Positions 1,306-6,886 of a stretch of DNA of 6,886 nt are shown here, one piece after another. The notes below the pieces were generated by a model, which did not search any database, was not told where the DNA came from, and saw only the letters and a program-made list of their open reading frames with translations. This stretch comes from a virus (lineage: Duplodnaviria > Heunggongvirae > Uroviricota > Caudoviricetes). Location of the stretch: the IMG/VR virus record IMGVR_UViG_2731957842_000003. One strand, written 5' to 3'. Positions within the stretch are counted from its first letter, which is position 1. Each line of letters starts with the position of its first letter. The position numbers and the translations under genes were made by a program.

Positions 1306-5638
<4,333 letters not shown>

Positions 5639-5667
<29 letters not shown>

Positions 5668-6187
5668 CAATCCACCCGCCTACGTTCTCACCAGCTTTAG
5701 CTGCAACGTTGGAGGCTTTTGCGATTTCAGTTTTCACCACATCAAGGTGTGACGGTGAAATATCCGGATATTTACGCTGTAATGTCAGCGGCACACGTAC
5801 AAGTATCCCCGAAATCTCCTGTGCCACACGTTGCAGAATGAAGGTAAACAATTCCGTTTCCAGTACCAGCCCTTCTTCGCGGGCATTTTTCAGTTCCTGT
5901 GCATCAGCCTGTGCTTTTGTGAGTCGGTAGCGCTCATAGTCAATGGTGCCGGGTTGTAAATCTGATTCCGCAGCCGCACGCAAATCCTCGGTCTCTTTGC
6001 GGAGTTTTTCGTTTTCAATATCGGCTTCGCGCTGCGCATACCACTGAATTGCCATGGCGGTATCAAATACAGATTCAACCCCCTTACTACCACCAGAGAC
6101 ACAAGAGAGCCCTTGAGACTGCCAGCGTTCAATCGTTCGTGGATCCACGTTGAAAATTTCCGCGAGCTTCTTTTTATTAACCTTCAT
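5639..6187 (-). CDS. nu1: Terminase small subunit (gpNu1-like), apparently full length (182 aa)
   Basis: ATG at 6187-6185 gives [26 protein letters not shown]...[10 protein letters not shown]...[28 protein letters not shown]..., matching recalled lambda Nu1 (MEVNKKQLADIF...IENEKLRRE...[28 protein letters not shown]) at roughly 55-60% identity. The track ORF runs 18 nt further to a TTG at 6205. Stop at 5641-5639. The start lies about 180 bp from the putative cosN, as in lambda. Confidence 0.9.
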
Positions 6188-6212
6188 AAAACATTTCCAT
6201 ATCAAATGCAGG

Positions 6213-6265
6213 GTCCGACATGGAAGTGCTCAAAAACGTCTTTTTCGGGCACTTTCATGTCGGAC
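6213..6265. promoter_or_regulatory. Putative cosB: inverted pair of 16-bp repeats, candidate terminase (Nu1) R-sites
   Basis: GTCCGACATGGAAGTG at 6213-6228 and its near-perfect inverted copy (reverse complement of 6250-6265 is GTCCGACATGAAAGTG), 15 of 16 identical. A weaker related motif GTACCGACACG sits at 6313-6323. An A-tract (6285-6292) lies between repeats and cosN. The position between cosN and the Nu1 start matches lambda cosB organisation. Confidence 0.4.
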
Positions 6266-6363
6266 CTTTTACGGATGTGATTGATGAAAAAACAATGAGT
6301 TATACACGAGAAGTACCGACACGCTTTTTCCCGAAAAATTTTCATAAATAGCGAAAATCCGCG

Positions 6364-6375
6364 CCGCTGCCGCCC
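6364..6375. other. Putative cosN cohesive-end sequence of a lambdoid cos site, with a cosQ-like flank at 6391-6406
   Basis: Plus strand 6344-6380 ATAAATAGCGAAAATCCGCG|CCGCTGCCGCCC|CGTGG is collinear with the reverse complement of the recalled lambda cos junction (ATAAATAGCGAAAACCCGCG|AGGTCGCCGCCC|CGTAAC). The implied 12-nt 5' overhang is GGGCGGCAGCGG versus lambda GGGCGGCGACCT. Adjacent 6391-6406 (reverse complement ACGGGTCCTTCCGGTG) resembles the recalled lambda right-end sequence ACGGGTCCTTTCCGGTG. Confidence 0.6.
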
Positions 6376-6729
6376 CGTGGCAGACCACCCCACCGGAAGG
6401 ACCCGTACAAATAGAGTTATTATTAATTACATTTACAGTAGGAATGATGTACATCATTGAAACACCATTCAGTCATATACCGACAGCATTCGGTGTTGCA
6501 CTTCATAACTCTGCGACTACGGTTATAAAAGCATTGGCTACTTTTGCCACCGGCAAATCTTCAATGGATTTCCCCTGCCGGTTTTTTATTTTCATCGATG
6601 CATAACATTGCTTTTACATCAATAGCAGCTATTGTCAGTAGTATGTTGTATCGATGCATGGGTGGTATTGGCGATCTTCGCCGACCGGTTCTGTGTAGCT
6701 CCCTATGACCGGTTTTTTTATTTCTAAGA

Positions 6730-6766
6730 TTATAGAAGTCCTTCACTGTATGAAGGACTTCTATAA
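6730..6766. repeat. Perfect 16-bp inverted repeat with 5-nt loop; possible terminator or protein-binding palindrome
   Basis: 6730-6745 TTATAGAAGTCCTTCA pairs perfectly with 6751-6766 TGAAGGACTTCTATAA, loop CTGTA. T-rich DNA flanks it on the plus strand (GGTTTTTTTATTT upstream, CTTCTTACTTTGTAATTTT downstream). Confidence 0.5.
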
Positions 6767-6831
6767 CGCTTCTTACTTTGTAATTTTCGCACCTTCCGGT
6801 AATTCCATAGGTTAAAAAAACCTCATAATCT

Positions 6832-6860
6832 CTGACAATTTGATCCTACCCACGTAATAT
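6832..6860 (+). promoter_or_regulatory. Weak sigma70-like promoter candidate reading rightward out of the window
   Basis: CTGACA (6832-6837), 17-bp spacer, TAATAT (6855-6860), in AT-rich intergenic DNA. The match to the TTGACA / TATAAT consensus is partial only. Confidence 0.2.
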
Positions 6861-6886
6861 GGACACAGGCCTTAGCGAGGTTCTGG

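What the first reader, a model, noticed from the sequence alone, without database searches (positions are those of the whole stretch)
6213..6265. 15/16-matched inverted repeats GTCCGACATG(G/A)AAGTG in the cosB position
Two near-identical 16-mers in opposite orientation, centres about 37 bp apart, lie between cosN and the Nu1 start. This is the geometry expected for binding of a Nu1 dimer (R-sites). The sequence differs from the lambda R-site consensus I recall (CGTTTCC-type), consistent with the diverged Nu1 and a distinct packaging specificity. A third degenerate copy is at 6313-6323.
Basis: seen in the sequence. Interest (0 to 1): 0.4.

Follow-up and report, generated by a model that had tools for sequence, protein, structure and literature searches.

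The report
Phage 21-type cosB terminase-binding sites
The two inverted 16-mers are the already-described R2 and R1 small-terminase binding boxes of a phage 21-type DNA-packaging site (cosB), here in a decaying lambdoid prophage of E. coli, so the finding is correct but ordinary.

Summary
The 16-mers at 6213-6228 and 6250-6265 are inverted copies matching at 15/16 positions, and 0 of 1000 shuffles reach this. The symmetry extends to 25-nt arms.

The window is a deleted lambdoid prophage of E. coli. Read on the minus strand it has cosQ, cosN, R3, an IHF site (I1), R2, R1 and the Nu1/TerS gene, in the same order and spacing as lambda and phage 21. The curated phage 21 genome (OL657228) annotates R3, I1, R2 and R1. 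Transferred to the window, R2 is 16/16 identical, R3 15/16 and R1 14/17.

The Nu1 homologue is 94% identical to phage 21 gp1. It carries the published 21-specificity residues (E20, S24), and R3 carries the matching base pairs (G56, G59).

In 76 loci chosen by Nu1 similarity alone, the R-box cores are almost invariant while the spacers diverge. No covariation supports a hairpin.

[quoted passage not shown] Binding was not tested here. Novelty: already known. Interest: low.

The parts
6394..6406 (-). cosQ / 'R4' conserved block (minus strand ACGGGTCCTTCCG; GGGTCCT is at 6404-6398), about 29 nt upstream of the nick position
   Evidence: Transferred from the M81255 feature 'R4 (R box) recognition for terminal cos cleavage'. 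GGGTCC is nearly invariant in the 47 distinct upstream regions. PMC4669245 states that the 7-bp cosQ is highly conserved among lambda-like phages. In the window type it lies 1 bp closer to cosN than in phage 21.
6364..6375 (-). cosN cohesive-end equivalent, GGGCGGCAGCGG on the minus strand. It differs from lambda/21 (GGGCGGCGACCT) at positions 8, 9, 11 and 12.
   Evidence: Alignment A1. The variant is shared by 19 of the 76 related loci, so it is not a private mutation. PMC4669245 reports that differences at bp 7-12 are common and tolerated.
6327..6363 (-). I2 segment (positions 13-49), the spacer between cosN and cosB, including CTATTTATGAAAATTTTT
   Evidence: 33/37 identical to phage 21. 27/37 invariant among the four subtype representatives. 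I2 is described in PMC4856287.
6311..6326 (-). R3 box, AAGCGTGTCGGTACTT (positions 50-65).
   Evidence: 15/16 identical to the annotated phage 21 R3. It starts at position 50 as in lambda, 434 and 21. bp 56 and 59 are G and G, as in 21 (lambda/434: T and C).
6290..6302 (-). I1, the putative IHF site. TAACTCATTGTTT on the minus strand; AAACAATGAGTTA on the plus strand.
   Evidence: Maps onto the annotated I1 of phage 21 and of 434. It matches WATCAANNNNTTR with 1 mismatch, and is the only such match between cosN (6364-6375) and the Nu1 start. 11/13 invariant among subtypes.
6253..6268 (+). R2 box (minus strand AAGGTCCGACATGAAA), inverted relative to R3 and R1.
   Evidence: 16/16 identical to the annotated phage 21 R2. 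16/16 invariant among the four subtype representatives.
6226..6252 (.). R2-R1 spacer. It holds the T-tract flanks of both boxes, which form the inner part of the 25-nt palindrome.
   Evidence: Only 18/27 identical to phage 21 and 11/27 invariant among subtypes. The T-tract + (C/G)(G/A)G flank is shared by all R elements, including R3.
6209..6225 (-). R1 box, TTCCATGTCGGACCCTG.
   Evidence: 14/17 identical to the annotated phage 21 R1. The CATGTCGG core is invariant in all 47 distinct sequences.
5639..6187 (-). Small terminase subunit gene (Nu1 / phage 21 gene 1 homologue), 182 aa, apparently intact
   Evidence: Pfam Phage_Nu1, E = 2.3e-83. 171/182 identical to phage 21 gp1, with residues 20 and 24 being E and S. 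Residues 1-54 are 49/54 identical to PDB 7LWR, whose sequence equals phage 21 gp1 residues 1-54.
4327..5670 (-). Truncated large terminase subunit (gpA'): 434 homologous residues, then 13 unrelated residues. It is joined at about 4368/4369 to a 5'-truncated J gene.
   Evidence: Pfam GpA_ATPase is complete, but GpA_nuclease covers only profile positions 2-115 of 294. tblastn identity to related loci stops at residue 434. The junction is not found contiguous in any of 5426 complete E. coli genomes.

Best explanation
The inverted 16-mers are R2 (6253-6268) and R1 (6209-6225). Together with R3 (6311-6326) and the IHF site I1 (6290-6302) they make up a complex lambda-like cosB of the phage 21 specificity class.

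Inferred mechanism, taken from the lambda/21 literature:
- IHF bends the DNA at I1, so R3 and R2 face each other and a TerS domain dimer docks across them.
- R1 provides a further TerS site for assembly of the terminase oligomer.
- This anchors the large subunit so that it nicks cosN at a fixed distance from R3.

The 25-nt palindrome arises because two copies of an element of roughly 28 bp (T-tract flank plus core) lie head to head.

In this particular prophage the site cannot act for its own genome, because the large terminase is truncated and the head genes are deleted. It could only be used in trans by a co-resident phage with 21 specificity.

Shown here: sequence, position, orientation, spacing, homology, the conservation pattern and the specificity determinants. 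Inferred: actual binding by TerS and IHF, and cos activity.
For: The architecture is colinear with lambda-type (434) and phage 21 cos. R3, I1, R2 and R1 fall in the same alignment columns as the annotated features.

Identity to the annotated phage 21 boxes is R2 16/16, R3 15/16 and R1 14/17. The flanking spacers are only 67-73% identical.

R3 starts at position 50, as in lambda, 434 and 21.

The specificity determinants named in PMC4669245 (R3 bp 56 and 59; TerS residues 20 and 24) are G/G and E/S, as in phage 21. Phage 434 (lambda-type cos) has T/C at bp 56/59 and Q at residue 20; residue 24 of lambda TerS is Glu according to PMC4669245.

The cognate TerS is 94% identical to phage 21 gp1 and matches the solved phage 21 and lambda DNA-binding domains.

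Unbiased conservation test: 76 usable IMG/VR loci, selected only by Nu1 protein similarity, give 47 distinct upstream regions in four subtypes. Invariant positions among the subtype representatives are R2 16/16, R3 14/16, R1 14/17 and I1 11/13, against 11/27, 11/20 and 8/22 in the spacers.

R3 takes no part in the palindrome, yet it carries the same core and the same T-tract flank.

The literature states that 21, phi80 and Gifsy-1 share the R3-I1-R2-R1 order with R2 inverted (PMC9026076, PMC4669245).
Against: No binding or packaging experiment exists for this sequence. M81255 itself labels the phage 21 R boxes 'putative', so direct genetic evidence covers mainly R3. The cohesive-end sequence differs from lambda/21 at 4 of 12 positions, and cosQ lies 1 bp closer to cosN, so cos activity of this subtype is unproven. 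No isolated phage in the INPHARED collection carries this exact subtype; the best matches are 79-81% identical. The role of R1, and of the R2-R1 pairing specifically, is the least understood part of the model.
Confidence: 0.92

Rival explanations
1. The 25-nt-arm palindrome acts as a nucleic-acid structure rather than as protein sites. It could be an RNA hairpin in the late transcript leader that modulates Nu1 translation or stability, an intrinsic terminator, or a DNA cruciform.
For: The minus-strand RNA folds at -34.7 kcal/mol with z = -8.6 against shuffles. In subtypes A and C, two inner pairs differ on both sides (GT/AC versus AC/GT).
Against: Any long inverted repeat folds well, so stability does not discriminate. 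On 15 distinct sequences the covariation score (0.099) is below the shuffled mean (0.121; 491 of 500 shuffles are at least as high), and no pair counts as changed on both sides. Subtype B breaks columns 17/43 and 18/42 outright. The arms are conserved in sequence, not merely in pairing. R3, which is unpaired, carries the same core and flank. No T-run follows the stem; the terminator scan did not call it and found only one weak site against 0.6 expected. Rfam gave no match.
Confidence: 0.04
2. The boxes are homologous to phage 21 R sites but are dead relics. The cos of this prophage subtype, with its altered cosN right half and cosQ spacing, is no longer a substrate for any terminase.
For: The prophage is defective: gpA is truncated, the head genes are deleted and an IS3 lies upstream. 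cosN differs at 4 of 12 positions. No isolated phage has this subtype.
Against: The same cos (100% over 217 nt) sits in a prophage with a full-length terminase and a complete head gene set in strain EC11. 19 IMG/VR loci share this cosN variant, some on contigs of 39-47 kb. Changes in bp 7-12 of the cohesive end do not measurably affect cos cleavage (PMC4669245). The R cores are as intact as in phage 21.
Confidence: 0.1
3. The repeat is a chance inverted repeat, or an operator for an unrelated DNA-binding protein.
For: None beyond the existence of dyad symmetry.
Against: 0 of 1000 shuffles reach the observed match. Position, orientation and sequence correspond to the annotated TerS sites of phage 21. 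No other regulator gene is adjacent.
Confidence: 0.01

Closest known systems
cosB of coliphage 21 (GenBank OL657228 and M81255: R3 50-65, I1 74-86, R2 107-122, R1 150-166; gene 1 TerS; DNA-binding domain structure PDB 7LWR)
   Same: Same order, orientation and spacing. R2 is identical, R3 15/16 and R1 14/17. The CATGTCGG core is the same. The specificity base pairs (G56, G59) and TerS residues (E20, S24) are the same. TerS is 94% identical.
   Different: The R2-R1 spacer is only 18/27 identical and the I1-flanking region 30/41. There is one extra base between I1 and R2. The cohesive end is GGGCGGCAGCGG instead of GGGCGGCGACCT. cosQ is 1 bp closer to cosN. The site lies in a deleted prophage, not a viable phage.
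cosB of phage lambda / 434 (R3-I1-R2-R1; Nu1; PDB 1J9I)
   Same: Same tripartite architecture with an IHF site. R3 is at position 50 and R2 is inverted. A T-tract flank lies 5' of each core. The TerS fold and gene position are homologous.
   Different: The recognition core is CGTTTCC instead of CATGTCGG. bp 56 and 59 are T and C. The TerS recognition-helix residues are Q20/E24. According to PMC4669245, lambda and 21 each package their own DNA more than 1000-fold better than the other's.
Simple cosB of phage N15 (single R3 plus remote rR2) and the complex cosB of Monarch
   Same: They belong to the lambda-like cos family, with TerS bound at the R3 position.
   Different: N15 has one R box and no IHF site, with a different core sequence. 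The window has the full three-box form.
cos of Gram-negative PICIs (Rpp-redirected TerS)
   Same: A cos is retained on a non-autonomous element that depends on helper terminase.
   Different: PICI cos sites lack R repeats and use Rpp to retarget helper TerS (PMC9026076, PMC6739421). The window has canonical R boxes and its own TerS gene, and no rpp was seen.

Membership tests
Complex lambda-like cosB (R3-I1-R2-R1) | Lies between cosN and the start codon of the small terminase gene | tested here: met
   cosN is at 6364-6375, the R boxes span 6209-6326 and the Nu1 ATG is at 6185-6187, all read on the minus strand.
Complex lambda-like cosB (R3-I1-R2-R1) | Three repeated R boxes, with R2 inverted relative to R3 and R1 | tested here: met
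   R3 and R1 have the same orientation and R2 is opposite. This matches the annotation notes for 434 and 21 and PMC9026076.
Complex lambda-like cosB (R3-I1-R2-R1) | IHF site between R3 and R2 | tested here: met
   6290-6302 matches WATCAANNNNTTR with one mismatch and coincides with the annotated I1 of 21 and 434. This is sequence-level evidence only. The motif count in the whole window is not above chance (3 found, 4.1 expected), so the evidence lies in the position.
Complex lambda-like cosB (R3-I1-R2-R1) | [quoted passage not shown] | tested here: met
   R3 starts at position 50 in the window, in phage 21 and in 434. PMC4669245 states that this spacing is critical.
Complex lambda-like cosB (R3-I1-R2-R1) | R boxes bound by TerS and I1 bound by IHF; required for cos cleavage and packaging | not testable with these tools
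   Needs EMSA or footprinting and packaging assays.
Phage 21 packaging-specificity class | R3 base pairs 56 and 59 of the 21 type (G, G) rather than the lambda type (T, C) | tested here: met
   These positions are named as critical in PMC4669245, which cites Sippy et al. 2015.
Phage 21 packaging-specificity class | TerS recognition-helix residues 20 and 24 of the 21 type | tested here: met
   E20 and S24, as in phage 21 gp1. Residues 8-27 are identical to gp1.
Phage 21 packaging-specificity class | cosN and cosQ identical to lambda and 21 | tested here: not met
   The cohesive end matches at 8/12 positions, differing at 8, 9, 11 and 12. The cosQ heptamer is present but 1 bp closer to cosN. PMC4669245 reports that such right-half differences are common and do not create cosN specificity, so this does not affect cosB class membership.
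Structured RNA / intrinsic terminator | Base pairing maintained by compensatory change; a T-run after the stem for a terminator | tested here: not met
   Covariation is not above the shuffles. There is no T-run, and the scan did not call the stem. Rfam gave no match.

The most novel reading that the evidence does not exclude
The prophage remnant keeps an intact cosQ-cosN-cosB and an intact TerS gene, although it has lost the TerL nuclease domain and all head genes. It might therefore be cut and packaged in trans by a co-resident phage with 21 specificity. That would mobilise the remnant and the adjacent chromosome (the potAB/pepT side) in a cos-dependent, PICI-like or lateral-transduction-like way. 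A smaller, separate possibility is that the R elements are really bipartite sites of about 28 bp. Their T-tract + (C/G)(G/A)G flank is shared by the lambda and 21 types, which would make it a specificity-independent contact.
Probability: 0.1. Interest if true: 0.4.

Novelty: already known. Interest (0 to 1): 0.1.

Why it matters
It matters little as a discovery. It shows that reading the sequence alone can correctly pick out cosB R sites, and it assigns this prophage remnant to the phage 21 packaging-specificity class. That class is widespread in E. coli: 1139 of 5426 complete genomes have a match covering at least 80% of this cos region.

The useful by-products are modest:
- a four-subtype comparison showing which cosB positions are constrained (R cores, I1 and the T-tract flanks) and which are free;
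- a catalogue of cohesive-end variants attached to the same cosB/TerS;
- one subtype with an unrecognised cosN.

Tried and rejected
1. Hairpin or terminator reading. It was folded, scanned and tested for covariation. It was rejected because the conservation is of sequence, not of pairing, and because R3 shares the element without a partner.

2. Rfam search of the whole window at gathering threshold: no match.

3. Scan of one genome per species (genome contigs) for TCCGACATGAAA-N24-34-CATGTCGG. It gave 8 hits, all in unrelated MAGs (Verrucomicrobiota, Bacteroidota and others). My own estimate of the chance expectation is about 12 (596 Gb x 2 strands x 11 gap lengths / 4^20). The scan is therefore uninformative about taxonomic range, and the species-representative enterobacterial genomes evidently lack the exact pattern.

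4. The key primary papers on lambda/21 specificity (Sippy et al. 2015, PMC5006951; Feiss et al. 2010, PMC2815929) are not held in the library. Their content is cited only as relayed by PMC4669245.

5. The IHF consensus count over the whole window is not above chance. Only the coincidence with the homologous I1 position counts as evidence.

6. I looked for the window's gpA'-J' junction in complete E. coli genomes and found none contiguous, so the exact source strain remains unidentified.

Full report
**1. The observation**

The two 16-mers are present as described. 6213-6228 reads GTCCGACATGGAAGTG. The reverse complement of 6250-6265 reads GTCCGACATGAAAGTG, so there is one mismatch, and the centres are 37 bp apart. 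No other copy with three or fewer mismatches occurs in the window on either strand. None of 1000 shuffles of the intergenic region 6188-6400 produced a 16-nt inverted repeat with one mismatch or fewer.

The arms 6212-6236 and 6242-6266 are 25 nt long, 88% complementary and separated by 5 nt. The third copy is real and has the orientation of the 6213 copy (pair I2).

**2. What the window is**

All genes lie on the minus strand. From low to high coordinates they are:
- a side-tail-fibre fragment;
- a Lom C-terminal fragment (1306-1485);
- a 5'-truncated J gene (1482-4400);
- a truncated large terminase gene (4327-5670), with the GpA ATPase domain complete and the nuclease domain cut at profile position 115 of 294;
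- an intact 182-aa Nu1 homologue (5639-6187; Pfam Phage_Nu1, E = 2e-83).

The right part of the window (5600-6886) is 100% identical to bovine and farm E. coli chromosomes. There it sits next to potAB/pepT, with an IS3-family element just upstream of cos.

Strain EC11 has the same cos (100% over 217 nt) and the same IS3, but with a full-length terminase and a complete head gene set. The window is therefore a deletion derivative of that prophage type. Its gpA'-J' junction at about 4368/4369 is not found contiguous in any of 5426 complete genomes. Sister strains carry other deletions at the same locus (hits H1, H8, H9).

**3. What the repeats are**

Read on the minus strand, the intergenic region aligns colinearly with the left ends of phage 21 and of phage 434, which has a lambda-type cos. 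The curated complete genomes of 434 and 21 annotate cosN 1-12, R3 50-65 and I1 74-86. R2 is at 108-123 in 434 and 107-122 in 21, noted as being in opposite orientation to R3 and R1. R1 is at 151-166 in 434 and 150-166 in 21. The older phage 21 record M81255 carries the same R boxes plus R4/cosQ, I2 and I0.

Transferring the phage 21 features by pairwise alignment gives:

| Feature | Window coordinates | Minus-strand sequence | Identity to phage 21 |
|---|---|---|---|
| R3 | 6326-6311 | AAGCGTGTCGGTACTT | 15/16 |
| I1 | 6302-6290 | TAACTCATTGTTT | 11/13 |
| R2 | 6268-6253 | AAGGTCCGACATGAAA | 16/16 |
| R1 | 6225-6209 | TTCCATGTCGGACCCTG | 14/17 |

The start codon falls at position 189, as in phage 21.

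The plus-strand reading of I1 (6290-6302, AAACAATGAGTTA) matches the IHF consensus WATCAANNNNTTR with one mismatch. It is the only such match between cosN and the Nu1 start.

**4. Specificity class**

The Feiss laboratory papers state three relevant things (PMC4669245, PMC9026076):
- lambda, 21, phi80 and Gifsy-1 share the R3-I1-R2-R1 architecture;
- lambda and 21 each package their own DNA more than 1000-fold better than the other's;
[quoted passage not shown] TerS residues 20 and 24 are E and S, as in phage 21. Phage 434 has Q at residue 20, and PMC4669245 gives Glu24 for lambda TerS.

The whole TerS is 171/182 identical to phage 21 gp1. Its first 54 residues are 49/54 identical to PDB 7LWR, whose sequence equals gp1 residues 1-54 as translated. 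They also match the lambda Nu1 DNA-binding domain 1J9I.

**5.

To avoid selecting on the repeat itself, I collected loci by Nu1 protein similarity only. This gave 80 IMG/VR loci with 93-100% identity. Of these, 76 had enough upstream sequence, yielding 47 distinct upstream regions in four subtypes:
- subtype A, the window type;
- subtype B;
- subtype C;
- subtype D, the phage 21 type.

Positions invariant among one representative per subtype:

| Region | Invariant positions |
|---|---|
| R2 | 16/16 |
| R3 | 14/16 |
| R1 | 14/17 |
| I1 | 11/13 |
| R2-R1 spacer | 11/27 |
| Region 87-106 | 11/20 |
| Region 167-188 | 8/22 |

The cores CCGACATG and CATGTCGG are invariant in essentially all sequences.

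The 21-type cos is common: 1139 of 5426 complete E. coli genomes have a match covering at least 80% of the 217-nt cos query. The window's own subtype is rare there (40 records at 95% identity or more) and is absent from isolated phages, whose best matches are 79-81% identical.

**6. Hairpin versus protein sites**

The RNA would fold at -34.7 kcal/mol (z = -8.6), but any 25-nt inverted repeat does so. On 15 distinct R2-to-R1 segments the covariation score (0.099) is below the shuffled mean (0.121). No pair counts as changed on both sides, and subtype B breaks two inner pairs. No T-run follows the stem and the terminator scan does not call it. Rfam finds nothing.

The extension of the palindrome beyond the 16-bp boxes has a simpler explanation. 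Every R element carries a T4-5 tract followed by (C/G)(G/A)G about 6 nt 5' of the core. This holds in all four subtypes, including the unpaired R3, and in the lambda-type boxes of 434. Two such elements placed head to head give the inner CCCGAAAAA...TTTTTGAG symmetry. R3 also changes in step with R2 and R1 between the lambda and 21 types, although it has no pairing partner. Only the protein-site model predicts that.

**7. Mechanism**

This is inferred from the family, not shown here. TerS reads the R cores through its winged helix-turn-helix domain. IHF bends I1 so that R3 and R2 face each other and a TerS domain dimer docks across them (PMC4856287, PMC9026076). Further protomers assemble, possibly as a TerS ring on cosB (PMC10810279). 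TerL is thereby positioned to nick cosN.

In this window the site cannot serve its own genome, because TerL lacks most of its nuclease domain and the head genes are gone. It could only be used in trans.

**8. Verdict**

Interest is low (0.1).

Side observations are listed separately. They include variation of the cohesive-end right half among loci with the same cosB/TerS, and a subtype with an unrecognised cosN.

Noticed in passing
L028, L030, L031, L033, about 1400-1440 in each locus (roughly 190-220 nt upstream of the Nu1 start at 1501): Four IMG/VR loci have a 21-type R3/I1/R2/R1, an intact cosQ, Nu1 98% identical and the TerL N-terminal 434 aa 97% identical to the window. In place of the cosN stretch ACGGGGCGGCGACCTCGCGGTTTTTC they read C(G/C)G(G/A)GGGTCATAGCACGCGCAAAAACGCG. 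No isolated phage in the INPHARED collection matches that stretch. This may be an undescribed cohesive-end type attached to a 21-type cosB.
   Followed up: partly
window 6364-6375, and the cosN region of L006-L085: [quoted passage not shown] In the window type cosQ is also 1 bp closer to cosN.
   Followed up: partly
window 6226-6252 and 6327-6340; the same positions in phage 21 and 434: Every R element (R3, R2 and R1, in four 21-type subtypes and in lambda-type 434) has a conserved T4-5 tract plus (C/G)(G/A)G about 6 nt 5' of the specificity core. This suggests the functional element is longer than the annotated 16 bp and partly independent of specificity.
   Followed up: partly
window about 4368/4369: The large terminase gene is cut after residue 434 and joined to a 5'-truncated J gene, deleting all head genes and most tail genes. 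This junction is not found contiguous in any of 5426 complete E. coli genomes. Sister strains at the same potB/pepT locus carry different deletions (H1, H8, H9). Strain EC11 has the undeleted head region.
   Followed up: partly
window 6730-6766: A perfect 16-nt inverted repeat, TTATAGAAGTCCTTCA / TGAAGGACTTCTATAA, with a 5-nt loop, lies between cosQ and the IS3-family element (pair I3). Its function was not examined.
   Followed up: no
window about 6823-6886: The end of an IS3-family element: the transposase CDS is annotated from the equivalent of about 6823 onward in NZ_CP128584, and TGATCCTACCCACGTAATATGGACACAGG lies at about 6841. It is inserted about 420 bp upstream of cosQ and is shared with EC11 and other bovine strains.
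   Followed up: no
window 6195-6225: A weak stem pairs the R1 flank TTCCAT with ATGGAA just before the Nu1 start codon and is followed by ATGTTTTATG. It was called terminator-like, but 1 site was found against 0.6 expected by chance (pair I14, 37), so it is probably fortuitous.
   Followed up: no
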